This document shows, one piece after another, positions 1 to 59,478 of a stretch of DNA of 64,000 nucleotides. Source of the DNA: Eledone cirrhosa (lineage: Eukaryota). Position 1 is the first letter of the stretch. The number at the start of each line of letters is the position of its first letter. Position numbers and translations under genes: made by a program. The notes under the pieces were generated by a model. The model saw only the letters and a program-made list of their open reading frames with translations, was not told the origin of the DNA and ran no database searches. The DNA is taken from assembly GCA_964016885.1 (NCBI GenBank), contig OZ024754.1, positions 11,346,001 to 11,410,000 on the forward strand, read 5' to 3'.

Positions 1-5895
<5,895 letters not shown>

Positions 5896-6504
5896 TGGTG
5901 GCTGCCAACTCGTTTTCGAGTACGGCCACTACTTTATATCCATGTAGGAGAACCCCTACTGATGCGCTGAACGAGTGTGACTTTTTAGTCCAGCCAGCGA
6001 CTTGAAAGCTCTGGTACAAACACTACACTTGTGACAATTATTGACACATAGTGCTGGGCCCATGGTACCATGTGACGACAAATGCAGAGAGATCTCCAGA
6101 TATAAAGCAATGCCTGTGCCGTGAAGCTTTTATAGTGAGCAAAGGCACTGCACAAAGCCAGTCCCACTCTCTTAACCAAGATGATATTTACCAAAAAGAA
6201 GAACAAGTCAACATCATTGGATACCATCAGGGTTGCAGGTGTTATATCAGAGTTTTCCTTCTCCTAGAATTCTGCCTTGACAAAGGCTAAGGGGTCATCT
6301 CTCCCGGTGATTTTGGATGGCCATTGACTCTTAAGAGCTCCTTTGCCTTTTGACAGGTTTTGTTTTTAGTCCTGCAGGATGTCCAAAGTCACCCTCCTCA
6401 CCAAGAAACCTTGGTGGGGTTGCCAGTTTAGTCGCCAACGACCCGACCATGGGACAGGTTGTACTGGAATACATGTTACCAGTAGCACCAACTGGTGACC
6501 TGAC
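5896..6504 (-). mobile_element. Short bipartite (internally deleted) non-autonomous RTE-type retroelement inserted in the TA array
   Basis: Minus strand has the RTE-like leader motif TCTAGGAGAAGGAAAACTCTGA, then a C2H2 remnant [24 protein letters not shown] near the 3' end; no endonuclease or RT between them. Confidence 0.6.
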
Positions 6505-26647: not shown

Positions 26648-27670
26648 CAGTGAGTCCTCGATATACGGTATATATGCGTTCCTGAAACCCTTACCGTATA
26701 TCGAATTACCGTATAAAGAACCCATTATAACATGAAATAGATAGGGATGCGTTCCAGTACATCGAAAAAGTCATTCCTATAGAAAAGAAATAATGTTTTT
26801 TTTTTTATTTACTGTACCTTACACATGCAGATGATGTGCCTCTTCATCTTTGACTGCAGTGGATGTTGAAGGGCCAGCTGTAGCACAGTTGGCAGGTGTG
26901 ACTGGCTTGAAGAAAGAGTAGATGGAGGACTGTTTGGCGGTGTTTCTTTTGGCTTCATACATTTATTGGTAAATCTTGACGCTTTTCCCGACGTCTTGAG
27001 CCACTTTGCTGCTCCTAGCAGGGTTGGGGTCACGCTCCTTCAGGGTTTCTGAGATTGTTTCGATACTCCCGAGACATTCTCTTAGAGTTTTTATGTCCAA
27101 GCCACGCACAGGTTCTTCTTCCTCCTCTTCTTCTTTTTCTGTCTCCTGTATCGCCTTGTCTAGTTCTATGAGTTCATCATTGGAGAGTGGTTCAGCGTGG
27201 CTTTCCAAAAGGTCTTTCACATCATCATCATTAACACCATCGAAGCCAGCTCTATGGCAGAGATTTACAATATCTTTTTTTATCGCACCAATGTCCTCAG
27301 CAAAGCCATGGAAGTTATTCACACATGCTGGCCATAATTTCTTCCAGGCCAAGTTCATGGTAGACTGCTTCACTTCTTCCCAAGATGCCTTGATGTTGTC
27401 TAAGCCGTGCTTGATGTTGCACAATTTCCACCTTTCCCTGATCATCGGCTTGTCAGGCCCATCTCTGCCCTTTATCAGCTGCTGCATGGTTCTCCGCTGG
27501 TCGCATGCCTTAAATGTTTTGATGACTGTTTGATCCATCGGCTGAATGAGAGCTGTGGTGTTTGGGGGGAGAAACAAAACCTCTATATTTTCTGACCAGT
27601 CTTCCATTGCCCGTGGGTGGCTGGGGGCGTTGTCCACTAATAGCAGAAAACGGTTGGCAATGTTGTTAGC
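26648..27670 (-). mobile_element. Truncated pogo/Tigger transposon (DDE transposase C-terminal part, ORF 26963-27637)
   Basis: LLVDNAPSHP...FLPPNTTALIQPMDQ motif, acidic tail; TA-CAGTGAGTCCTCG terminus. Confidence 0.92.
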
Positions 27671-27674
27671 TAAT

Positions 27675-28407
27675 GCATTAGGCGATTTAGCGATCGCTCT
27701 CTATAATTCTTAGTCTTTCTCTTTTTAGATAGATACATACATATAACGTCGCGCCCTTATAATATCTGTCTGTATGTCTGACTGTCTGCATTACGTCACT
27801 TCCCTGAGGATGTCTGTGTGTGTGCGTGTTTAAATCCCTAAAACTCGAGAAGTACTCAACCGATTTTTTTCAAACTTTACATGTGTATTACTTATGTTTC
27901 AAGGATAAAAAAATTCAACTTTTTTATCTCCTAGGGCCCATTAGGGGAAAAACTGCGTTTTTTAAGCTTTTTAGGGGTTTTTGAGGCGTTACGTCAGACC
28001 GATTTCTTTGAAATTGTAACTATGTATTAGTCAGTCTCTTCTTCATACCGTGAGCAAAGAAAATCCAACTTTTTTATGGCCTGGGCCCGCATTAGGTGAA
28101 AAAATTCATTTTTTCAGCCATTTAGGCTTTTTTGAGGCGTTACGTCTAGCCGATTTTCCCGAAATTTCAAGGCGTATTATGCACATAAAAAAAATTCATT
28201 TTCTTGATCCCCTAGGACTCGCATTAGGTGAAAACCTGCATTTTTCCTGCTTCTTCGAGGAAAATCTTAAAGATTATCCAGCCATCAGAGTATTAGGTTT
28301 ATTTTCTTTACATATTGTCCAGTCATGCAGTTTTTCCACGATTAGGTCTGTTGGCGGCTCGCGTTCCAAAATACCTTATCCCGTGCAACGCCGGGTACCA
28401 CTGCTAG
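27675..28407 (+). mobile_element. Non-autonomous Helitron-like element; homologous pieces on the minus strand at about 45050-45530, split by a SINE
   Basis: 3' hairpin CCCGTGCAACGCCGGG followed by CTAG then T. Confidence 0.7.
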
Positions 28408-32155: not shown

Positions 32156-35100
32156 AGATTTAAAAAATTAATTTAAAAAAATGAGAATCAATATTTTAGA
32201 ATCAAACAAATTGAACACCAAATATTTTCTGAAAGTTTTTTTATTGGCAAAGACTCAACATATTAGTTAATTGAAATATAAACAAAGTTTTAAACAATAC
32301 TTCATAACCTTTCATTAACTATCTGTCATTAATATTGAAAGGTTAATTAAATTTTACTAATTTAGCCTTTGCTTACTATTTTTTGCATAATAATTAATAA
32401 TTAGCAAAATAGTTTGACTCCAATTTAGAAAATAAACAACTTGTTGATATTTTGACTGCTATTAATGGTAGTCTTTATTTTCAACAAAACAATATCTAAT
32501 GTGTGAAGACCCTTAAGCCTTTAGCATTTAAACTGGCCACAATTCTGTATCCTCTTTCTGTTCAAACTGGCCGTAACTGGCTGTTCATAATTATGTTAAG
32601 ATATTGTTCTCAAAATAAATATCAAAATCTCATAGATTCGATATTATGTGAGATAAAGCCTTTACCATGAAAATATAATAATAAATATAGAGTAATGTAA
32701 ATGGTAAAGGGTTAAAGATATAAAAAGAAGCTGTCATTAGCTGCCATGAGGAATACCTGATAATTCACCATAATATGAATTATCTTAAAGGAATTAGGAA
32801 TTATATTCTCTCCATTTCAAATATTCTGGTTTCATATTAAAAGGATTTATCCATAGTAAAGCACATCTATAAAATAAATAAATATCATTTAGTGTCTGAA
32901 ACTTATAATTAAATTCATCATCATCATTTAACATCCATTTTCTCTACTAGCAAGTGTTGGTCAAGTCTTCGCAGACCAAGTCAGTTCTCAAGCAGAGCTG
33001 CTGACCTCTCAGAAGGAACAGGGAGTGAGGGGAGGGAGACTACATCTCACTTACATACAATCTCATGCTTTACCCAGTGTATTTTATCATGGCATCAGCA
33101 CTAGGAAGGTTGCCATGTTTTTTGAAACAGTTGAATAGTTCTCCAAACCAATTGTTTGGTGGGTTCTCGGTGGCTGGGCATCTTTTTTGTCACCAAACAC
33201 TTTACAGAGTGTACTGGGTGTGTTTATAATGTAGATCACCTCTAGAGAAGGTGCCATGCCATCAACACAACTTAAGAGTATTAGGGTGAGTTTGCCTCAT
33301 GGTCCCAACAGATAGGATGGAAAAGACATTGTCCCAGAGGATGGTGAGGGAGATATGCCAAGAACAGCCGCACTTCCTTGTCGGGCTCACACTTGCAGGT
33401 AGCCAACTTTATCCCAATAGCAGTGAGTAGGGATGTGATCCAGGAAGGAGGGGTGTCCAAGAACGCTGGAAGTCTCCACTGCCTCAGCCACAGACCTATC
33501 AAAGAGTGGCCAATACTTTGACAGTTTGCCCTCTTTAGCCTGGCAGGCAGTGAAACCTGGGCTATTAGCTCAACACCAGGTTGCCACTGGAATTGTGCCA
33601 ACATGATGTGAACTGTAGTTGGTAATCGTAAGATATTCTAAATTCTCAGTGAAGTATTTTTGGTGAAGACATTTCTTTTTTTTACTAAATATTGTTAATG
33701 GTCGTTGATGGTTATTAAAGATCTTCATTAGATATGCAGGAATATTTCATATTCCCATACCACAGTTAAATGATTTCTTTTTTTAAACAGCCTTAGAAGC
33801 ATAAGGATAAAATAAAACCTGAATATAATTGAAAATAAAACTCAAATATATTTGAAAATGAAGCAGTGAATTGGCAGAGTTGTTAGAATGTCAGATAGAA
33901 TGTTTTGCTGTATTTATTTTGGCTCTCTGAGTTAAAATCTCTCTGAGGTCAACTTTGCCTTTCATCCAGTCAAGGTCAATAAAATAAATACCAGTCTAGT
34001 ACTGAGGTCGATTCTTTTTTATCTCTTTCTCACTTTTTCCCTCTAGCTTCCATTCTCACATTATTTCCATCCTTCATTGGAAGAACTCTGCTGTATTCAG
34101 ATCTGGAGAGGAGATGGGCCCTGCCAGGTTTTAAAAAATGCCCTAGAAGTGCTGTCAATACAGCACCTCTATTACAGGAATCATCATCATCATCATCATC
34201 ATCGTTTAACGTCCATCTTCCACGCTTGCATGGGTTTGGATGGGAGTTTTCCCCACTTGAGACAAGATTGGTTGTCCTGCTCGCATAGGACTGTCTGGTG
34301 GGTTTTCTACAGCTGGATGCCCTTCCTAACACCAACCACATTTACAGTGTGGGGCTGGGAGGTTTTTACCGTGTTGCCTACACGGCTACATTACAGCGTG
34401 GACTGTGTGTGTTTTTTGTTGTGACACCTACACAACCTCATTTGTTTCGGACTGGATGTTGTGGTACCAACATAACTTTACATTTAAAGGGGTGGTGTGG
34501 ATGGGGTGGGGATAGTGGGACGGGGTGGGGTGTATTTTGTTAGAGGTGCCAACAGACTGTAGGTTTCGCTTTGTACTTAGGCAAGGCGGGTCTTCTGTAT
34601 TACTGCATAGCGCCAAAGCTCTCGGTCCAGTGACATTGTCTTGGAGAGGTGTAAGTGTGTGAGGTCGGAATTTATCAAGTCGTCCCAGGTTTTTCTGGGT
34701 CTGCCTACTCCGTGGCTACCGTCTATTTTTATCGCCCTGCACTTAGTAATATACATAGATATTTGAAAATAAACTCAGATATATTTCATGTAACTTACAT
34801 TGCAGTTTATTTTGGGAGAATCCATATGATGGGAACATTCTGAAATATTTTCAAAAAATTCAATATCTAAAAAGAGAGAAAAAAAACAAAAAAAAAAAAC
34901 AATAATGATTTCTAGTATAGGCACAGGCCAGTAATTTGGCGGAGGGGAAAGTCAATTAAATTGACCCCAGTGTGTGACTGGTACTTTATTTTATCGACCT
35001 CGTAAGGATGAAAGGCAAAGCTAACTTCGGCAGGATTTGAACTCAGATCATAAATTGACTCAATGTATACTCATTTTTATTCTGTACATACATACTTGTT

Positions 35101-35896: not shown

Positions 35897-36103
35897 CTAC
35901 TTACTTTGATTTTGAGTGTTTTGGCACGTAGAAAATGCTTCATTTGGAATGTCTATAATGAAATTAGATGTCACTGGCCTCGGTTGAGGAAGTGGTTTAC
36001 AGAAAGTTTCTATAAATGGACATTGCAACATTAATTCAAAATGTGGGCTGAATTGTGAGAGACTAGCTAACAAGTTATTCACAGACATGGAACGTAGCTG
36101 GAT
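35897..36103 (-). CDS. PH-like domain gene exon (IQLRSMSVNNLL...QNQSK*); ends at TAG 35897 or splices at the GTAAGT donor after 35905
   Basis: Pyrimidine tract plus AG at 36104-36105, phase 0, open frame. Confidence 0.75.
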   Translation of the reverse strand: MQLRSMSVNNLLASLSQFSPHFELMLQCPFIETFCKPLPQPRPVTSNFIIDIPNEAFSTCQNTQNQSK

Positions 36104-37357
36104 CTAGAAAAAAAAGAAAAACCAAAATAGGTGCATGTGTGTTTAGATAAATATATCATTAACTACACATCGATACATTCACACACCACTCACACAATAG
36201 ATTTCTTCCTCAAGTTTGTATTGAGGATATGCGATGACTGGAGAGAAATGAAGCAAGTATGCTCCAATAGATGTGCAATGTCAATGTGCATGAATAACCA
36301 AACATGGATGAGTTGAGAGTGAAACTGTGTATAAGAGGGATAAACTGTAGTGTGTAGGAGAGAAGACTGCATTGGTATGGCCATGTGATGCGCATAGAAG
36401 ATGACTGTTGGATGAAGAAGTGCCAAGAAATCACGGTAGAAGGAAGACACAGTAGAGGAAGACCATGTAAAATATGGTTGGAGGTGGTGAGAGCTGACTT
36501 CAGATCGCTGAAGCTCACAGAGGAGATGACAAAGGACCGTGATGAATGGAGAGATACTGTGCTGAAGAGAAGCTGTCCCACCCTTGCAAGCAGGGAAAAG
36601 CAGACATATGATGATGATGATGATGATTGCTTACATACAGATGCATATTGTCATCATTTCTACATAAACTTTGCCATGCCGACATGGATTAGATGTGACC
36701 TTTTGAAGTAATGTTTTACAGTCAGATACCCTTTTAGTCAATTCTTAAGACACACAAGGTTATGGTGTACCTATTCTAAACTGGATACAGACGGATGATG
36801 ATTGCTGGGTGCCAGGAAATCCTAGTGGTTAGGAAGTTGCAGTAGACCAAGGAAGACCTGGGCAGAGGTGGTGAGAGCTGATCTCAAATTGCTGAGACTC
36901 ACAGAGAAGATGAAGGCACATGACGAATGGAGAGATGGTGTGCTGGAAAGGACCCATCCAATTCATGCAAGCATGGAAAAATGGGTGTAAAAACGATGAT
37001 GATGATGTACAACATCATCATGCTTTAACGTCTATCTTCCATGCTAGCATGGGTTAGACGGGAATTGACCCACTTAAGGTAAAATTGATTAGGTGACCGT
37101 GTCTCACTCGTATAGGACTCTATCTGGCTGGTCTTCTACAGCTGGATGCCCTTCCTAACACCAACCACATTTACAGTGTGGACTGGGAGCCTTTTTATTG
37201 TGTCCCCTACACGACAGTGATGATCATGTCTGGAATATCTTTCATCATAGGTCTGCTCTATAGAGCAGTCAAAAAGCTAAACAACAACAACAGCAGCAGC
37301 AACAATAATAGCAGCGGCTCAATAACACACAATCAAGACAAATAATATTTCACTCAC

Positions 37358-37634
37358 ATAATGAAAAGGTATCTGGTACAATTCACCACAAGTAAGGTCT
37401 GTGTAGTGGGAACGATCATATTTAATATTTTTGGTAGAACCATTTTGGTTCTTGTTATAAAAGCATGACCCCACATACATATGAGGAGGAACTTTTACTT
37501 GAAGACGAAATTTATCTTTTTGTCCCCACATTGCCACAATTGTATTGAAATCAACTTCAATGATTGCAAAGTATTTTGTACAACCTTCAAAGGATTCAGC
37601 CATTTTTCCGACTTGGAACTCGTATACCAATTTC
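37358..37634 (-). CDS. PH-like domain gene exon (KLVYEFQVGK...TDLTCGELYQIPFHY)
   Basis: 277 nt, phase 2/0, AG/GTGAGT; motif resemblance to the TRF2/HOY1 PH-like domain. Confidence 0.85.
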
Positions 37635-37741
37635 CTTTAAAGAAAACAGAGGTTAAAAACAATATAAAAAAAATATTTAATGGAATTTAAATCTATTTAT
37701 AAAATTTAACATCATATAAATATATTGAGTATAAGAGTCAT

Positions 37742-38012
37742 TATAGATTGGTCTGGACCAATGTCAGTTTCAATGGTGTATATAACAGTCTATAGAATGG
37801 AATGGACCAATGTCAGTTTCAATGGTGTATATAACAGTCTATAGATTGGAATGGACCAATGTCAGTTTCAATGGTATATATAACAGTCTATAGAATGGAC
37901 TAATGTCAGTTGCAATGGTGTATATAACAGTCTATAGAATGGAATGGACTAATGTCAGTTTCAATGGTGTATATAATAGGCTATAGAATGGACCAATGTT
38001 AGTTTCAATGGT
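37742..38012. repeat. 44-49-bp minisatellite (about 6 copies)
   Basis: Unit GGACCAATGTCAGTTTCAATGGTGTATATAACAGTCTATAGAAT(GGAAT). Confidence 0.92.
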
Positions 38013-39465
38013 GAGTGTTCCAATTGTTCAAGCAATGGAACAGGTTACTCTTTAAATTAACAAGTAAGTAGCTGATCATTCCACAGACATATGTCCCCTA
38101 AATGTAATTCTCAGGGAGATTCAATGCACAGTGTGTGATAAGGTTGGCTCTTTGAATTATAGGTACAGTCCATCTGATGGGTTTTAAAACAGTTTCTGTC
38201 TACCCACTTTCACTCACAAGGCATTGGTCAACCCAAGGATATGGTAAATGACATTTGACTGAGATACCACATTATGGTGGGATTGAACCCAGGTCTCAAT
38301 AATTATGAAGTAAAAGTCTTAACTATTCAGCCATGCAGTGTCAACTGGCCCCAATATGAAACTTTATACTTTATTAATATAAATATTGTGAGAATGATTC
38401 AAAAGACGTTCAGAGTTGCCTTCAGCAGGTTGAGAGTTAGCAATGGGTTCAGTGAGGAATTTAGTGTCCATCAGGTCTCAGTTCTCTTCTATGTATTATA
38501 GTTCACCAAGCCACGACAGGGTAGTTTGAGTTTAAATACATGTCAATAACCCCGTTATCATAGCTGAATGTGTCAAAGAATTAGAGAAGAAATTCCAGTC
38601 GCTGTAGAAAAGCCTTACAGTTAACCTAGCAAAGACAAAATTTTAATTAGCATGAAGTTCACAGAAGAGATGACGAAGGACCATGACAAATGAAGAGATG
38701 CTGTGCTGAAGAGATGCTGTGCTGAAGAGGACCCATCCCATCCTTGCAAGCAGGGAAAAGTGGACATAAAATGATGATGATGATGAAAGATGGTAGGTCT
38801 CTACTACTATTTGGAAAGAGGCCACACTCAATGTGCAAAATAGCAGTAGGTAGGAATTCTGTACAGTGTAATATGTAATTTATGGGAGCACAAGAGATGT
38901 AGTAGGATACAAGGTAGGTTGACAGAGAAGAAAAAACTATGTGTGCAGTTAATGTACAAAAGATATTTAGAAGTTAAGAAGTTTGAGATAGTTCAGTATG
39001 ACCTTCCATAAATTGTAATAAATGGTTTTAGTAGGATGAAGTAAAAAACAAAAAAGTAATGTGATGTGTCTAACAGCACAATGCCGTGTCTGTACAAAGC
39101 CCCACTATTTTTTAGACAGTAGCATAGTATTTAAAACAGTCAAAAAATGCACTTATGTCCTCTAAGCTTCTAGACAATTTTACTAAGCTCAGCCTTTATC
39201 AAAGCTAATATAGGTTTTTTTACTCATAAATATATATTAAATACAGATGACTTATGATGCTGTCGTCTCTTTACTTTGGTTATATATTATTATTTACAAT
39301 GTGTCACATATAAAGCACAGAGAAGAAAATGGAGAGAACATTGAATAGAATAATTGAGAGTTGGGTAGGGGAATATAGAAAGAAATAGAAAAGAATGAGA
39401 TAGAGGAGAGGGTGAGAAAGAAAAGAGAAAAATTAGTGTGAAATACAACAATTACATAAACTTAC

Positions 39466-39527
39466 TTTTTACTAAAAATTACTTTTAATTTTGATGTCCT
39501 TTTGAAATTGCTATCTGTGCAAAAATA
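39466..39527 (-). CDS. PH-like domain gene 62-nt exon (YFCTDSNFKRTSKLKVIFSK)
   Basis: TAATAG acceptor and GTAAGT donor; phase 0/2 exactly bridges the flanking exons. Confidence 0.75.
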
Positions 39528-40025
39528 CTATTAAAAATATTGAAGTGAAAAAGTATAATCAATAAAGTTTTTGATCATATAAATTGATCTACCAAAATCC
39601 CCCTCAAATTCAATGAATTTAAACAATTTTGTAAAATTAAAACAAAAAAAACTGAAAATGTTATCCCTTTAGCATTTACATTACTCTATATATACTATTG
39701 TATTTTCATGGTAAAAGCTTTACCTTACATAATTATCTCACATAATATCGAATCTATGAGATTTTGATATTATTTATTTTGAGAACAATACCTTAACATC
39801 AGTATGGGTGGCCAGTTACAGCCAGTTTGAACAGAATAAGGTGAAAGAATTCTGGCCAGTTACAGCCGGTTTAAATGCTTAAAGGTTAACACCCATATGA
39901 TAAACAAAAGGTCAAACAAAACATTAAAAACAAAAAGAATTAAACAATATAACATGATGTACACTATTATCACCACAGTGACATAAGGTTTATCACAATA
40001 AAACTATCTATAATTTAATGTTTAC

Positions 40026-40156
40026 CTTAAAGTTTCTGATTTGTAAAAAGCTGAAATCAAAATGTTTTGGTCTGGGGATTTTATTTTCACAGAGATTTTT
40101 AACTTTCACAAACTTTTGATAATCTGATGTTGGTTGGTAGACTTTCATAGGAACAC
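40026..40156 (-). CDS. PH-like domain gene exon (VPMKVYQPTS...PKHFDFSFLQIRNFK)
   Basis: 131 nt, phase 1/0, only one open frame. Confidence 0.8.
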
Positions 40157-40344
40157 CTTAAAATAGAAGTTGTGTGGAATATAATTAATTCACAATACAG
40201 AGAAATCAAAGACATCACTTCTTTAAAACAGCCTGATTTTCTTAAGTATAAGGCATAACCCATTTTTATGTAACACTTATGCCTTCTCTCAAAATAGTAA
40301 TAGACTTGATTGAGAATATATCCAGGCTAACTATAAAAAAGAAT

Positions 40345-41450
40345 ATAGAATTATGTACTATAGTACTAATATCTAGTCAATATAGAATAGGGCACTATAG
40401 TACTAATATCTAGTCAATAAGATAGAATAGGGCACTATAGTACTAATATCTAGTCAATAAGATAGAATAGGGCACTATAGTACTAATATCTAGTCAATAA
40501 TATAGAATAGGGCACTATAGTACTAATATCTAGTCAATAATATAGAACAGGGTACTATAGTACTAATATCTAGTTAATAACATAGAATAGGGCACTATAG
40601 TACTACTATCTAGTCAATAACATAAAATAGGGCACTATAGTACTAATATCTAGTCAATATAGAATAGGGTACTATAGTACTAATATCTAGTCAATATAGA
40701 ATAGGGCACTATAGTACTAATATCTAGTCAATAACATAAAATAGGGCACTATAGTACTAATATCTAGTCAATATAGAATAGGGTACTATAGTACTAATAT
40801 CTAGTCAATATAGAATAGGGCACTATAGTACTAATATCTAGTCAATAACATAGAATAGGGTACTATAGTACTAATATCTAGTCAATAATATAGAATAAGG
40901 CACTATAGTACTAATATCTAGTCAATAACATAGAATAGGGTACTATAGTACTAATATCTAGTCAATAATATAGAATAGGACACTATAGTACTAATATCTA
41001 GTCAATATAGAATAGGGCACTATAGTGAATAACATAGAATAGGGCACTATAGTACTAATATCTAGTCAATATAGAATAGGGCACTATAGTGAATAACATA
41101 GAATAGGGCACTATAGTACTAATATCTAGTGAATAACATAGAATAGGGCACTATAGTACTAATATCTAGTCAATATAGAATAGGGCACTATAGTACTAAT
41201 ATCTAGTCAATATAGAATAGGGCACTGTAGTACTAATATCTAGTCAATAACATAGAATAGGGCACTATAGTACTAATATCTAGTCAATATAGAATAGGGC
41301 ACTATAGTACTAATATCTAGTCAATAACATAGAATAGGGCACTATAGTACTAATATCTAGTCAATATAGAATAGGGCACTATAGTACTAATATCTAGTCA
41401 ATAATATAGAATAGGGCACTGTAGTACTAATATCTAGTCAATAACATAGA
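40345..41450. repeat. 37-40-bp minisatellite (roughly 28 copies), intronic
   Basis: Unit TAGAATAGGGCACTATAGTACTAATATCTAGTCAATA(ACA). Confidence 0.96.
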
Positions 41451-41535
41451 ATATTGCCTCTATAAATTCTTACTTCTAGAGAAGAATATATTTCAAAGTT
41501 TGAAAACCTGAAATTATATGAATGTTTATACTTAC

Positions 41536-42795
41536 TTGAAATAAAACCAGGGCCTTCAATATTTTGTACAGGAGGCAGACTTTCTGGATTATTCTTAGAA
41601 TTTGGAAATGTATCATCAATTGGTAATATATTCATTAATATTGGATCAATTGTATTTATTTTTGAAAACAAACTTTCATTGTTGGTTTCAAATAGATGGT
41701 TTTCATTTTCTTTGTATAAGCTATCTTCAGAAAATTTTGAGTTATCAGATAAATTAAGGGGTATTGGAAAGGAATTTTGTGTATTCAAGTGGTTGCAGTT
41801 TGAAGTAAGTTTTGATTGTGTCACTATTCTTCTATCAGAAAATAGTTCTTTATTTAAAATATTCTCTTGAATAGTATCACAAGTTTTTAATAACTCTCGA
41901 ACGGTACATTTTCGCAAATCTTTCTCACTACAAAGAAATTTGGCATTTCGAGCTTTTATTGAAACTGGAACTCTTTTAGTATATTTTTCCACAGTAATCT
42001 TCTTTGAGAAATTTCTTGCTGAATATGGCACAAGGGGAAATGTTGGTAATAGATACCTATTAGGCTTAAAAACTCCTCTATCATGAAAAATTTTGTCTGG
42101 ATTCTCAAAGGTATTGGAAAAATCAACTGTAGGCATCAAACGAGACACACTTTGGTCACATTTAGAAATAATAGCTCCAGGAGTTTTATTTAATTTTGAT
42201 GGTACAATTTTTTCTTGAAAGAATTTATTAAAATTCAGAGATTCGACATTTTGTAGCTGTAAATTTTCCTTGTTTATAGTAACTTCTCTTTGTTTGTCAT
42301 TCTTCATATTAGATACATTGGACAAAGATACATTATTAAAATTGTTCATGTCAATATTCAATGATCTGATATTGTCATCATTTATTGGATTAGGACAATA
42401 ATAATAATCAGATAACTTTAGAGAACAATCAACATTATTACAAGAAGTAGCTGATGGTATGTTTACATCAGATTCCACAGAAAATAATTTAGGTGAACAA
42501 GAGATATTTTCTGATTGCAGTTCTTCCAAATTCAAACGATGTACTTGTTGGTGATCAACAAACTTAGAATAATTTACCTCCATACAACCTTCTGCAGAAC
42601 AAAAGCCTGGGACTTGTTGAATGTGAAAATAATCATGTTCAATCACATGAGTTTTATGTGAATCTGCTACTCTATGCCTTATATCTAGAGTAGGTGATGG
42701 CCAGTCAGCAAAGTTTTCCATTGAACTTATATGAATTATCCAAATAATTGTGTATATCTTGTTGAAAGAGGGATACTTCAGAATTCTTGGTAGAT
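41536..42795 (-). CDS. Large exon of the PH-like domain gene (N/S-rich, probably disordered N-terminal region; first Met at 42721)
   Basis: 1.26-kb open frame in AT-rich DNA; acceptor at 42796-42797; phase-1 GTAAGT donor at 41534-41535 matches the next exon. Confidence 0.85.
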
Positions 42796-43024
42796 CTGTT
42801 TAAAATCATTAATTTCTATTAAAAAAATTGCATTTAACATTGAAAAAATTTTAAATGCAGTGTACATATATACATTTTCCTGCATACATATATACATTTT
42901 CCTGCATACATACCCATGTATATGTACATACACATAGACACGCATACACCTACACACTCATACATAAACATATATACACAAACATTACATAGACATAGGC
43001 ACACAAACAAGCATAGAGACCTAC

Positions 43025-43054
43025 CTACACAGATATATATATACACACACACAC

Positions 43055-43089
<35 letters not shown>

Positions 43090-43200
43090 TATATATATAT
43101 ACACACACATATATATATACACACACACATATATATATATATATACACACACATATATATATATATATACACACACATATATATATATATATACACACAC

Positions 43201-43231
<31 letters not shown>

Positions 43232-43324
43232 TATATATATATACACACACACATATATATATATATACACACACACATATATATATATATACACACACAC
43301 ATATATATATATATATACACACAC

Positions 43325-43355
<31 letters not shown>

Positions 43356-43574
43356 TATATATATATACACACACACATATATATATATATACACACACAC
43401 ATATATATATATATACACACACACATATATATATATATATATACACACACACATATATATATATATATATACACACACACATATATATATATATATACAC
43501 ACACATATATATATATATATATACACACACATATATATATATATATATACACACACATATATATATATATATAT

Positions 43575-43617
<43 letters not shown>

Positions 43618-43852
43618 TATATATATATATATATACACACACATATATATATATATATATACACACATATATATATATATATATACACACATATATATAT
43701 ATATATATACACACATATATATATATATATATACACACACATATATATATATATATACACACACATATATATATATATATACACACACACATATATATAT
43801 ATATACACACACACACACATATATATATATACACACACACACATATATATAT

Positions 43853-43883
<31 letters not shown>

Positions 43884-44780
43884 CACACACACATATATAT
43901 ATATACACACACACATATATATATATATACACACACACATATATATATATATATACACACACACATATATATATATATACACACACACATATATATATAT
44001 ACACACACACATATATATATATACACACACACATATATATATATATACACACACACATATATATATATATACACACACACATATATATATATACACACAC
44101 ACATATATATATATACACACACACATATATATATACACACACACATATATATATATACACACACACATATATATATATACACACACACACATATATATAT
44201 ATATATACACACACACATATATATATATATACACACACACATATATATATATATACACACACACACATATATATATATATACACACACACACATATATAT
44301 ATATATACACACACACATATATATATATACACACACACATATATATATATACACACACACATATATATATACACACACACACATATATATACACACACAC
44401 ACATATATATACACACACACACATATATACACACACACACATATATATACACACACATATATATACACACACACACACATATATATACACACACACATAT
44501 ATATATATACACACACACATATATATATATACACACACACATATATATATATACACACACACATATATATATATACACACACACATATATATATACACAC
44601 ACACACATATATATATACACACACACATATATATATATATACACACACACACATATATATATATATACACACACACATATATATATACACACACATATAT
44701 ATATACACACACATATATATATATACACACACACATATATATATATACACACACACATATATATATATACACACACACAC

Positions 44781-44825
<45 letters not shown>

Positions 44826-44882
44826 CACACACACACATATATATATATGTACATACAGATATATATATATATACACACGCAG

Positions 44883-44917
<35 letters not shown>

Positions 44918-45047
44918 CGCAGATATATATATATATGTACACACGCAGATATATATATATATATGTACACACGCAGATATATATATATATATATATGTAC
45001 ACACGCAGATATATATATATCAAACTCAGACACACACACACACACAG
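43025..45047. repeat. Compound (TA)n(CA)n microsatellite array
   Basis: Directly visible. Confidence 0.99.
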
Positions 45048-45542
45048 ACAACCTGAGGGAAGTGATGTAATGCAGACAGACAGATATTCTAAGGGCGCGA
45101 CGTTATATGTGTGTAAGGCGGTGGATTGGCAGTATCAGTAGAGGGTCGGACGCCATGCTTTCCAGCATAGTTACGTCCCTTTACGATCTGAGTTCAAATC
45201 CCGCCGAGGTTGACTTTGCCTTTCATCCTTACGGGGTCGATAAAATAAAGTACCAGTCATACACTGCGTAATTGCTGGCCTTGTACCTAAAGTAGAAACA
45301 GTTAGATGTATGTATCTATCTAAAAAGAGGAAGACTAAGAATTATAGAGAGAGGTCGCTAAATCGCCTAATGCGGTCCCCAGGGCATTGAAAATTTGAAA
45401 TTCTGTTTGCTCAGAACACTCCCTGAAACATAAGTATTACATGTGTAAAGTTTGAAAACAGTCGGTTGGGTGGTTCTCGAGTTTTAGGGATACACACACA
45501 CACATACATACAGACGGTCAAAGCCGCATGTAGTGTTATCTA

Positions 45543-51829: not shown

Positions 51830-54307
51830 CTGGTTGCCTTTGATATGCTAGATGGACTATAGAATTCTGGAGAGTCTGAAGAATCTGGACACTCAATGAC
51901 AATGTCAAAGATAAAGATAAATTCACCTCATGTTGCCGGACGAGAATTTATCTTTATTTCAGACGCGGATGGCTAACATAACCCCATCTCCCTCACCCCT
52001 CCCTACACCTCCAACCCATCCTTTCCACCCACCAAACAAAATCCAAAACTTCAGAGTTGGTACCATGAATGTAGGCACTTTAAAAGGTCGCTCTAACGAG
52101 GTTGTAAAGATGCTTGAACATAAGGAAGTTGATGCTTGTTGCGTCCAAGAGACTAGGGGGAGGGGTGGGTCTGCTAGATTCATTGTGGGTAAAAAACGAT
52201 GCTATAAACTTTTCTGGGTGGGAAATGAAAATGGGCTGGGTGGAGTAGGAATTATGTTAGCAGAAAAATGGGTAGATAAGGTAATCGACGTAAATAGAGT
52301 GAATGACAGAATAATCAAAATACGACTTGTCCTAAATAGAACTACTGTGACAATAATATCCGCGTATGCACCCCAATCTGGACTGCCTGGCGTTATAAAA
52401 GACAGATTCTATGAGTCGCTAATGCTCACTACCTCCCAACTAACCGACAGTGACTACATAATTATTGCTGGTGACCTAAATGATCATGTTGGACAACATT
52501 GTGACGGCTATGACGGAATCCATGGAGGCTACGGGTTTGGTACCAGAAATGAGGAAGGCTTCAGAATCCTGGAATTCTGTGACGCTAATAAACTAACTAT
52601 CTGTAACACAAACTTCAAAAAAGGAGACAATCACTTGATCACCTATAGATCAGGGGAACATGCCAGTCAGATAGATTATATCCTTACCAGAAGACGTGAC
52701 AAAGTGTCTGTTGTAAACACTAAATCCCTCCCCCGTGAAGAATGCACCTCCCAACATAGCCTCATAGTTAGGGACCTCATAGTCAGGACAAGCACAGCCA
52801 GTAACAAATTTAAAAGCATATTACTTGATGCTTTTGACAGTAAGGAAGAGCAATTAGAGACGTACAGTATAGAGGAACAGTGGGAATTCCTGAAAGTTAA
52901 CCTGCTGAAGGCGACAGATGAAATCTGTGGCTGGAGCAAACCTATAGGCAGGAGGAGAGTAACATGGTGGTGGAACAGTAAGGTGGAGGAGTCAATCAAG
53001 GCCAAAAAGCAAGCTTGGAAAGTATGATGGGATTGGGGAAGTAGAGAAGACTATGGAAGCATGGCCTAGAATCAAAAGGCCTTAAAATTAACTTGTCTAA
53101 GACTAAAGTTCTAGTATGTAGGAAGGAAAATAGGGCACTGGTCCCCTCTGGGAAATGGTCATGCTCAGTGTGTAGGAAAGGAATAGGCAGAAACTCCATT
53201 TTATGTCCCAAATGCAAAGTATGGGTGCATAAAAGATGTAGTGGGATCACAAGTAAGCTAACTAAGAACATAGATTTTATATATGGCCAGTGTTCAGGTG
53301 CAATAAGTAGCAAGTGCCCACAGGATACTAGCTCCTTCCATTGCCCAGATGGTTCTATAGAAATAGTGGACACCTTCCATTACCTGGGTGACAAAATCAG
53401 AAGTGGTAGAGGGTGCTCTGAAAGTACAGTAGCCAGAGTCAGAACGGGATGGAAAAAGTTCAGAGAGCTTATACCACTATTGGCCACTAAAGGTTTCTCT
53501 CTAAAAATGAAAGGCAGACTGTATGATGCCTGCATACGAACAGCAATATTACATGGCAGTGAGACATGGGCATTGTGTGCAGAGGATCTGCGCAGACTGG
53601 AGAGGAATGAAGCTTGCATGCTTCGTTGGATGTGTAATAGTAATATACGTGAACGACAAAGCATAAATGAACTAAGTGAGAAATTAGGAATACGGGGGAT
53701 CAGATGCTGTTTACTCGAGAGAAGACTACGTTGGTATGGTCACGTGATGCGCATGAAAGACGACAGCTGTATAAAAAGTGCAGGGCAATCAAAACTGATA
53801 GAAGCTACGGAGTAGGCAGACCTAGAAAAACCTGGGACGATTTGATAAATTCCAACCTTACACACTTACACCTCTCCAAGACAATGTCACTGGACCGAGA
53901 TCTTTGGCGCTACGCAGTAATACAGAAGACCCGCCTTGCCTAAGTACAAAGCGAAACCTACAGTCAGTAGGCACTTCTTAACGAAAAATACACCCCCATC
54001 CCCATCTACACCACCCCTTTCTCTGTAAAGTTATGTTGGTACCACAACATCCAGTCCTAAATAAATGGTCGTGTAGGTGTCACAACAAAAAAACACAGTC
54101 CACGCTGTAATGTGGCCATGTAGGTAACACAGTAAAAACCTCCCAGTCCACACTGTAAACGTAGTTGGTGTTAGGAAGGGCATCCAGCCGTAGAAAACCT
54201 GTCAGACAGTCCTAAACGAGCAAGACAACCAATCTTGCCTCAAGTGGGAAAATTCCCGTCTAAACCCATGCTAGCGTGGAAGATAGACGTTAAACAATGA
54301 TGATGAT
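51830..54307 (+). mobile_element. RTE LINE with APE endonuclease ORF (51930-53027), deleted RT core and Cys-rich C-terminal region (53093-53815)
   Basis: GTMNVGTL, CVQETR, AYAPQ, GDLN, SQIDYIL motifs; no YADD region; (ATG)n tail. Confidence 0.93.
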
Positions 54308-55593
54308 TATACTTAGCCTTTGTTGACCTAGAGAAGGCCTTTGATAGGGTACCCCGATCTGTCATCTGGTGATCCCTAAGGAAACTAGGTTTTGAGGAAT
54401 GGCTTGTGAGGACAGGGCAAACTTTGTACAGAGGTACTGTCAGTAAAGTCAGAGTAGGAATGGAGGTTAGTGAACAATTCCAGGTACAAGTAGGCGTTCA
54501 TCAAGGTTCGGTCCTCAACCCGCTCTTGTTCATTATAGTCCTCCAAGCCATAACAGAGGAGTTTAAGACTGGCTGTCCATGGGAACTTCTCTATGCTGAC
54601 GATCTGGTTCTTATAGCAGAATCAGTAGAGGAGCTAGAGAATAAATTCTGGCTATGTAAACAGCAGTTGGAAGCAAGAGGACTGAGAGTGAACCTAGCTA
54701 AGACAAAAGTGTTGATGAGTAGAAAAAAGGACAAAACTCTGATTCCGTCAGGGAAATGGCCATGTTCGATATGCAGAAAAGGAACTGGCATAAATTCTAT
54801 AAAATGCACACAATGCAGATCCTGGGTACACAAGAGATTTAGCGGGATAGCAGGCAAACTAACAGGTAGGGAGAAATATGTATGCAGTAGATGTGCAGAG
54901 AAATTAGACAGTAGAAGTTGCATTGATAGACACATTTTTCAAATGCAGGCGGGTGCTATAGAAGTGGTGGGATAGCTTCCGGTACCTAGGAGATCAGATT
55001 AGCATGGGAGGGGGGGGGGGGGTTCCAAGGCCAGACTATCTAGAATAAGGACGGGTTGGAAGAAGTTTAGGGAGCTGCTTCCTCTGCTGACGAAGAAGGG
55101 TTTCTCACTGCGTACAAAAGGCTGGTTATATGATGCCTGTGTGAGGAGCATCATGCTGCATGGTAGTGAGACATGGGCAGCAACTGCAGAGGATATGCGA
55201 CGGCTGGAGAGAAATGAGGCAAGCATGCTCCGTTGGATGTGCAATGTTAATGTGCGTGAACGACCCAGCATGAATGTGTTGAGAGAGAAACTGTGTCTGA
55301 GAGGGATAGAATGTAGTGTGTGAGAGAGGAGACTGAGGTGGTATGGACATGTGATGCGCATGGAGGATAACCAATGGGTGAAGAAGTGCCAGGAAATGCC
55401 AGTTGAAGGAAGACGCAGTAGAGGTAGACCACGAAAAACATGGGCGGAGGTGGCGAGAGCAGACCTCAGACTGCTCAAGCTCACAGTGGAGATGACGAAG
55501 GACCATGAGAAGTGGAGAGATGCTGTGCTGAATAAGACCCGTCCCACCCTTGCGAGCAGGGGAAAGCGGACGTAAAATGATGATGATGATGAT
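54308..55593 (+). mobile_element. 5'-truncated RTE LINE (RT to 3' end) with stop codons
   Basis: AFVDLEKAFD, GVHQGSVLNPLLF, LLYADDLVL, FRYLG; (ATG)n tail. Confidence 0.95.
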
Positions 55594-56183
55594 GACTACA
55601 GCAACCGACAGTGGAGAAATTTTTTAATTATTTTCAAATAACAATAATACAACACAATGTTATTTTACCTACAACTACTGACAAACACAAATCTGTACTT
55701 TTTTTAGCATTTATAATTTAATTTATTTTATCAAACTAAACGATGTACATGAAATAAATTAATAACAAAGTTCACATTTTCCCCCAAACAATATATATAG
55801 CTTGACCTCTGCAGGATTTGTATTAATATTGACAAAACAAAAGACATGAAAGAAAGAAAACAACAAACAAATTAACTTGTAATATTTCTTTAAAATAAAG
55901 GACGGTGGATTGGCAGCATTGGTAGAGCGTCAGACATACTTTATGGTTTTACGTTCCAAGTTCAAATCCCACTGAGGTTAATTTTGCCTTTCACCGTTAC
56001 AGGGTCGATAAAATAAAGTACCCATAACGCACCAGGGTTGATTAAATGGTTTCCCTTCCTCCAAAACTGCTGGCCTTGTGCCTAAATCAGGAACCAATAT
56101 TTCTTTAAATTGAATTTATGAATGCGAAATATCAATTTATTTTTTGTTTTGTAAATATTACTTATGTTTTTTAGGTGTAAATC

Positions 56184-59331: not shown

Positions 59332-59478
59332 GCTTATAATGTTCTGGGTAAGTTTCTAGTTCTAAACAAAAATGAGAAATTGTTTAAAGACTGGCTCATG
59401 GAGACTGTCGATGCCACTTCAGAACAGAGTCAAGAATGTTACCAATGTCTGAAGATCCAGTGTGACAATTTTCTGTAA
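59332..59478 (+). CDS. BANF1-like: BAF-like protein, coding exon 2 (AYNVLGKFLVLNKNEKLFKDWLMETVDATSEQSQECYQCLKIQCDNFL*); 86 aa in total
   Basis: Pyrimidine tract plus CAG; matches BAF AYxVLGxFLVL...FxxWL...CxxCL..CDxFL; AATAAA at 59562. Confidence 0.93.
   Translation, partial: AYNVLGKFLVLNKNEKLFKDWLMETVDATSEQSQECYQCLKIQCDNFL

What the first reader, a model, noticed from the sequence alone, without database searches (positions are those of the whole stretch)
35897..42795. Animal multi-exon gene with a TRF2/HOY1-type PH-like domain
Seen: five exons join in frame (phases 1, 0, 2, 0) into a protein of about 620 aa, with a long N/S-rich N-terminus and a compact domain PKHFDFSFLQIRNFKY...KLKVIFSKKKLVYEF...IIEVDFNTI...LQVKVPPHMYVG...TDLTCGELYQIPFHYIQL. 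From memory, these blocks line up in order with the plant/fungal TRF2/HOY1 PH-like pattern (ASNFPASxLxIGxW...LVAKCYFAKxKLVWE...KIEIQWSDI...LxxxPLFFRE...DFTxGQAS..RxHxL). I know of no characterised vertebrate or insect member. Inference: a patchily retained, uncharacterised animal branch of this family.
Basis: partly seen in the sequence, partly recalled or inferred. Interest (0 to 1): 0.72.

Follow-up and report, generated by a model that had tools for sequence, protein, structure and literature searches.

The report
Octopus PH-like adaptor lacking zinc module
This is a real octopus-type gene, likely of six exons, that encodes a long, likely floppy protein with one predicted PH-like domain related to a little-studied domain of fungal gene regulators and plants; many relatives in clams, corals, spiders and lancelets add a zinc cluster that likely reads DNA, which cephalopods appear to have lost, so it likely works as a protein-binding adaptor in gene regulation.

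Summary
The gene is real. The five exons join as stated, and octopod database proteins run contiguously across every junction, including the 62-nt exon. The 35905 donor is probably used: a sixth exon (34866-34775) matches the Octopus tail, giving 648 aa. The C-terminal domain folds as PH-like (orthologue model pLDDT 93; best solved matches RDR2, SYCP2, REC114). Octopod copies score below Pfam's PF24818 cut-off (14-17 of 24 bits), but lancelet, clam and acorn-worm relatives (30-34% identical) pass it, and the nearest Atlas model is PF24818 (TM 0.77). A 35-residue motif in the floppy N-terminal part is as conserved as the domain. Best reading: a non-catalytic, likely nuclear adaptor whose ancestor read DNA through CXC; function untested. 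No RNA run was listed for this species. Three paper searches found nothing on the family, but some animal members already carry the Pfam label, and this scan met the family twice before in other genomes.

The parts
41536..42721 (-). Coding exon 1 (1186 nt, aa 1-395): long low-complexity N-terminal region; ATG at 42721; donor phase 1
   Evidence: start matches first residues of O. bimaculoides and Argonauta proteins
41867..41971 (-). Conserved 35-residue motif (aa 251-285) inside exon 1, ending in a TVRELL-type stretch; likely a docking motif
   Evidence: 83-89% identity against 22-51% in most flanks; related short motif in 12 of 29 long relatives, 0.08 expected, pattern chosen after seeing hits
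40026..40156 (-). Exon 2 (131 nt): linker and first strands of the PH-like domain
39466..39527 (-). Exon 3 (62 nt): third strand of the domain; needed to keep the frame
37358..37634 (-). Exon 4 (277 nt): core of the PH-like domain; both intron edges appear shared with distant animals
35905..36103 (-). Exon 5 (199 nt): last strand, C-terminal helices of the domain and start of the tail; donor phase 1
34775..34866 (-).
   Evidence: no matching seventh exon found

Best explanation
The gene encodes a likely 648-residue protein with no recognisable catalytic domain, made of a long, likely disordered arm and one predicted PH-like domain of the TRF2/HOY1 type, and it likely acts as a nuclear adaptor that holds partner proteins in gene regulation. 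Shown: the exon structure, orthologues in four other octopods, homology to an animal family, a CXC cluster in most long relatives and none here. Predicted: the PH-like fold. Inferred: the ancestral animal protein bound DNA through CXC, as fungal members do through a homeodomain, and used the PH-like domain and the conserved arm motif for partners; cephalopods lost the DNA reader, so their protein would be brought to chromatin by its partners or would act as a cofactor.
For: PH-like fold with nearest solved matches RDR2 (Z 11.4, rmsd 2.9, 123 aligned), SYCP2 (10.1, 3.2, 105), REC114 bound to ANKRD31 (9.5, 3.0, 101) and FACT subunits (8.8). In the Atlas the domain sits with homeodomains in two fungal clusters (TM 0.68, 0.65). 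In animals it sits before a CXC cluster: 16 of 30 long non-cephalopod relatives fit the published CXC consensus of PMC3447885 (passages), 18 a looser one, and 10 of these 18 have R/K just before the fourth cysteine, the place I infer for the DNA-reading R543 of MSL2. In Pho2 the conserved interaction region is required for partner interactions (PMC6200990, passages), and its core is given as CDDF-E (PMC11508405, passages), which resembles the animal D-L-T-x-G block (D in 35 of 40 rows). No membrane segment (highest 19-residue hydropathy 0.98). Domain and arm motif are far better conserved than the rest.
Against: No partner, location or expression was measured. A shared PH fold shows no function, and many non-nuclear PH/FERM/PTB domains score Z 7.6-9.2. 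The window protein has no clear nuclear localisation signal; its only basic run lies in the domain. That PF24818 covers the Pho2 interaction region is my inference from a motif: no fungal sequence was aligned. Two-hybrid tests failed to show binding of the Grf10 region to Bas1 (PMC6200990 section 7), and modelling suggests the core residues are structural. 12 of 30 non-cephalopod relatives also lack a CXC match, some perhaps through incomplete gene models.
Confidence: 0.45

Rival explanations
1. Germ-line chromosome adaptor: the domain binds a meiotic partner peptide as the PH domains of SYCP2 and REC114 do.
For: SYCP2 and REC114 are the second and third best structural matches; SYCP2 is second again for the acorn-worm model (Z 9.2).
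Against: 6-8% identity; Z values within about 1-2 of unrelated PH domains; no expression data; fungal members are vegetative transcription factors.
Confidence: 0.13
2. RNA-silencing accessory: a stand-alone cousin of the N-terminal beta-barrel (PH-like) domain of RNA-dependent RNA polymerases that links to small-RNA machinery.
For: RDR2 is the best match in Foldseek (E 4e-3), VIA-align and Atlas features (0.92, PH_RDR2).
Against: No polymerase or RRM domain in the orthologues; the function of that RDR2 domain is itself unclear (PMC8713982, passages); by Atlas structure PF24818 (0.77) beats the polymerase (0.57).
Confidence: 0.12
3. Cytoplasmic signalling or membrane adaptor that binds phosphoinositides or acidic peptides through the basic face of the PH-like domain.
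For: PH fold; conserved basic residues K31, K33, K38, K/R39 of the domain; no clear nuclear signal.
Against: Relatives are fused to CXC or homeodomain DNA readers; classical lipid-binding PH domains rank lower (Z about 7.8).
Confidence: 0.12
4. The cephalopod gene is not truncated: further exons with a diverged CXC/zinc module lie downstream and the models stop early.
For: Exon 6 has an internal GTAAGT donor right after a C-x pair; an unassigned single-copy 125-codon exon lies 25 kb downstream on the same strand; the Argonauta model is marked partial.
Against: Three Octopus species end in the same short tail; two unnamed contig-derived proteins end at the same residue without cysteines; a clam protein finds only exon 4 in the genome; a profile finds nothing in 214 kb (best 12 bits).
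Confidence: 0.1

Closest known systems
Pfam PF24818, TRF2/HOY1 PH-like domain (plants, fungi)
   Same: Only Pfam hit, spanning profile positions 2-115 of 119; Atlas TM 0.77 over 149 residues; bridged by animal proteins above the cut-off.
   Different: Octopod copies score 14-16.5 bits, under the cut-off of 24; cephalopod-type arm motif; no homeodomain.
Fungal Pho2/Grf10/Hoy1/RfeB homeodomain factors
   Same: Same domain type (Atlas clusters homeodomain + PF24818); a similar Asp-centred block near the domain's end (inferred).
   Different: No homeodomain here; animal relatives carry CXC instead, cephalopods neither.
Unnamed animal PH-CXC-zinc proteins (e.g. Branchiostoma LOC118408430, Mya LOC128208237, Saccoglossus LOC102808857, Lingula LOC106154036; some auto-named Tesmin/TSO1-like CXC domain protein)
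   Same: 30-38% identity over the domain, long low-complexity arm, shared edges of exon 4, tree place among molluscs (88/88, not starred).
   Different: The window gene and five other cephalopod proteins lack the CXC and the second cysteine-rich module.
RDR2 N-terminal beta-barrel domain (PF24823), SYCP2 and REC114 PH domains
   Same: Best solved structural matches (Z 11.4, 10.1, 9.5).
   Different: 6-19% identity; none of their other domains is present.

Membership tests
PF24818 TRF2/HOY1 PH-like | Score at or above Pfam's cut-off of 24 bits | tested here: not met
   Octopod orthologues 14.1, 14.4, 16.5, 14.7 bits; P0007 none; window exon 4 alone none. The spliced window protein itself was not scanned. 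Filed as a divergent relative, not a formal member.
PF24818 TRF2/HOY1 PH-like | Clear homology to proteins that pass the cut-off | tested here: met
   3 of 54 scanned hits pass, 2 cluster mates too; the window protein aligns to all 5 at E 2e-9 to 9e-24.
PF24818 TRF2/HOY1 PH-like | PH-like fold | tested here: met
   Model of the O. bimaculoides domain (81% identical): pLDDT 93.3, pTM 0.88; PH-fold chains fill the list; Atlas TM 0.77.
Pho2/Grf10/Hoy1 factors | Homeodomain | tested here: not met
   No homeodomain hit at E<=1 in P0004, P0007 or exon 1.
Pho2/Grf10/Hoy1 factors | Interaction-region core (CDDF-E) | tested here: inconclusive
   Animal D-L-T-x-G block resembles it; no fungal sequence could be aligned.
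Animal PH-CXC-zinc proteins | Homologous PH-like domain and shared intron edges | tested here: met
   153 bits against a non-cephalopod profile; 20 of 21 short single-exon-like hits have Val (GT read-through) where exon 4 ends, against 8 of 29 long proteins.
Animal PH-CXC-zinc proteins | CXC (nine Cys plus Asn) and second cysteine-rich module after the domain | tested here: not met
   0 of 6 cephalopod proteins; nothing in the genome search or in 214 kb.
RDR-type RNA-dependent RNA polymerase | Polymerase domain | tested here: not met
   No PF05183 hit in the orthologues; protein too short.
Phosphoinositide-binding PH domains | Lipid binding | not testable with these tools
   Needs an assay.

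The most novel reading that the evidence does not exclude
An unnamed, ancient animal family of chromatin regulators is the counterpart of fungal Pho2-type factors: the same PH-like partner-binding domain, joined to a CXC DNA reader and a second zinc module in place of the homeodomain, kept from corals to lancelets and lost in vertebrates and insects. Cephalopods dropped the DNA reader and kept a pure adaptor with a strongly conserved docking motif.
Probability: 0.3. Interest if true: 0.65.

Novelty: new variant of a known kind. Interest (0 to 1): 0.4.

Why it matters
The domain has no solved structure among the sequences searched and no paper under its name in the library. If the reading holds, a eukaryote-wide module travels with different DNA readers (homeodomain in fungi, CXC in animals, none in cephalopods), and yeast Pho2/Grf10 genetics would give testable residues for an unstudied invertebrate regulator that seems missing from the usual model animals. 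For now it is an annotation gain: the gene is already predicted, as 'uncharacterized', in other octopuses.

Tried and rejected
No RNA holder listed; the three listed runs behave as genomic DNA of one sample and show no splice joints, so junction reads were not seen. PF24818 over the own genome did not find this gene (2 weak matches elsewhere, E 4.7 and 9): the exons are too short and diverged. No paralogue found. No solved structure by sequence; Foldseek had no match at E<=0.001. The fold searches with the acorn-worm model tested only its PH part, so the zinc module's fold is untested; Atlas features matched it only to unnamed clusters (0.93 mostly bacterial, 0.89 rotifer). The RdRP search of the own genome found nothing, but its control rang nowhere, so it is uninformative. 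No seventh exon matching the Octopus tail. Complex prediction of the arm motif with the domain was not available, so that question is open. Rejected: artefact or repeat-derived ORF; a known animal gene; horizontal transfer (the tree follows animal groups loosely, without a formal test or outgroup). P0054 (TPS secretion domain) is treated as a false hit and was left out of the alignment and the counts. Paper searches without result; supplements were not searched and could list these genes.

Full report
Observation. A search with exon 4 found 3 proteins among 7 candidates, from Octopus bimaculoides, O. vulgaris and Argonauta hians, 68-74% identical; cluster mates add RefSeq 'uncharacterized' models of O. 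bimaculoides (four accessions) and O. sinensis. These map exon by exon onto the window, including the 62-nt exon, and the Octopus tail maps to a sixth exon at 34866. Using the donor after 35905 gives 648 aa with a stop at 34775. An unnamed 831-aa relative lies unbroken on a 3005-base contig and reads through the same junctions, which suggests a spliced transcript in a related animal. No RNA run was listed for this species. The organism is an octopod by homology.

Selection. Against O. bimaculoides the domain (aa 422-586) is 81% identical and a 35-residue motif (aa 251-285) 89%, the other parts 48-50%; against the 831-aa relative 63% and 83% versus 21-29%. A short version of the motif occurs in 12 of 29 long relatives (3 of them cephalopod), 0.08 expected by shuffling; the pattern was chosen after seeing hits.

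Family. A profile of the cephalopod domain found 57 proteins among 1.84 billion representatives, three of them cephalopod proteins already in hand. I looked up 20; 15 had names: bivalves (Potamilus, Mactra, Mya), gastropods (Batillaria, Babylonia), Owenia, Lingula, Porites, Branchiostoma, Saccoglossus, and chelicerates (Nymphon, Tachypleus, Oedothorax, Dermacentor, Brevipalpus); one search adds a sea anemone. With the two named octopods, 17 of 57 are named; none is a vertebrate, insect or nematode, but 40 are unnamed or were not looked up. A tree of 33 domains (rows covering at least 120 of 165 columns) puts cephalopods among molluscs with moderate support (88/88). Short single-exon-like hits start and stop where exon 4 does (Val at the donor in 20 of 21, against 8 of 29 long proteins), so the intron edges look ancient.

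Link to PF24818. It is the only Pfam hit of the octopod proteins, at 14-16.5 bits, under the cut-off of 24. Of 54 further hits, 6 match it at E<=0.01 and 3 pass the cut-off; two cluster mates also pass. The window protein aligns to these five at 30-34% identity. The Atlas's nearest model is a plant PF24818 cluster (TM 0.77), then fungal homeodomain + PF24818 clusters (0.68, 0.65); by features the first hit is PH_RDR2 (0.92) followed by PF24818. The predicted domain (O. bimaculoides, 41 rows) is confident (pLDDT 93.3) and PH-like: RDR2 Z 11.4, SYCP2 10.1, REC114 9.5, FACT subunits 8.8; Foldseek also ranks RDR2 first, at E 4e-3. So: a divergent relative of PF24818, not a member by Pfam's own score.

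What the relatives add. After the domain, 16 of 30 long non-cephalopod relatives fit the CXC consensus given in PMC3447885 (passages), 18 a looser form, and 17 carry a second cysteine-rich module; 0 of 6 cephalopod proteins have either. CXC domains bind DNA in MSL2 and LIN54 (PMC4248295, PMC3447885; passages). A clam protein holding both parts finds only exon 4 in this genome, and a profile of the module finds nothing in the window, 100 kb downstream or 50 kb upstream. Loss in cephalopods is the simplest reading; an unused donor in exon 6 and an orphan exon at 9499-9122 leave a longer gene possible.

Mechanism. Shown: structure of the gene, homology, architecture. Predicted: fold. Inferred: a non-catalytic adaptor. 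In fungi the domain accompanies a homeodomain, and the conserved region of Pho2 is needed for partner interactions (PMC6200990, passages and section 7); against this, two-hybrid tests on Grf10 failed, and modelling makes the core residues structural (PMC11508405, passages). That this region lies in PF24818 is my inference. In animals the DNA reader would be CXC; the octopod protein, lacking it, would reach chromatin through partners bound by the domain and the arm motif (0.45). Rivals: meiotic adaptor, small-RNA accessory, membrane adaptor, or a longer gene.

Novelty. No paper in the held library names the domain, six gene ids or the PH + CXC pairing; subscription papers and supplements were not searched. 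One animal member is already labelled PF24818 in precomputed annotation. This scan noted the family in two other genomes (AI notes, not independent support). Verdict: real gene, new variant of a known domain kind, function untested; interest 0.4.

Noticed in passing
window 59332-59478 (+): Last coding exon of a barrier-to-autointegration factor (BAF) gene: Pfam SAM_BAF 42-88, E 3e-16, good acceptor.
   Followed up: partly
window 9499-9122 (-): Single-copy 125-codon open frame behind a T-rich acceptor, with one C-x2-C pair; no Pfam hit; may be the last exon of another gene or of a longer form of this one.
   Followed up: partly
window 26963-27700 (-): DDE_1 transposase fragment, E 1.5e-19.
   Followed up: no
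window 51921-55600 (+): Broken LINE-type element: endonuclease domain E 1.6e-8 and further fragments; related short pieces lie in the gene's introns.
   Followed up: no
window 40330-41450 and 37740-38010: Tandem repeats of about 40 and 45-50 nt inside introns 1 and 3; long TA/CA microsatellites at 1-6000 and 43000-45100.
   Followed up: no
L014:8091 (+), L015:7746 (+), L019:8791 (-), L018:3795 (-): Neighbouring exons that look like a TRIM9-type RING protein, eIF5B and a myo-inositol transporter (names recalled, not tested).
   Followed up: no
P0009 1200-1365 and relatives: The CXC plus cysteine-rich module of the relatives resembles unnamed stand-alone clusters in bacteria (0.93) and rotifers (0.89) by Atlas features; it has no Pfam name.
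   Followed up: partly
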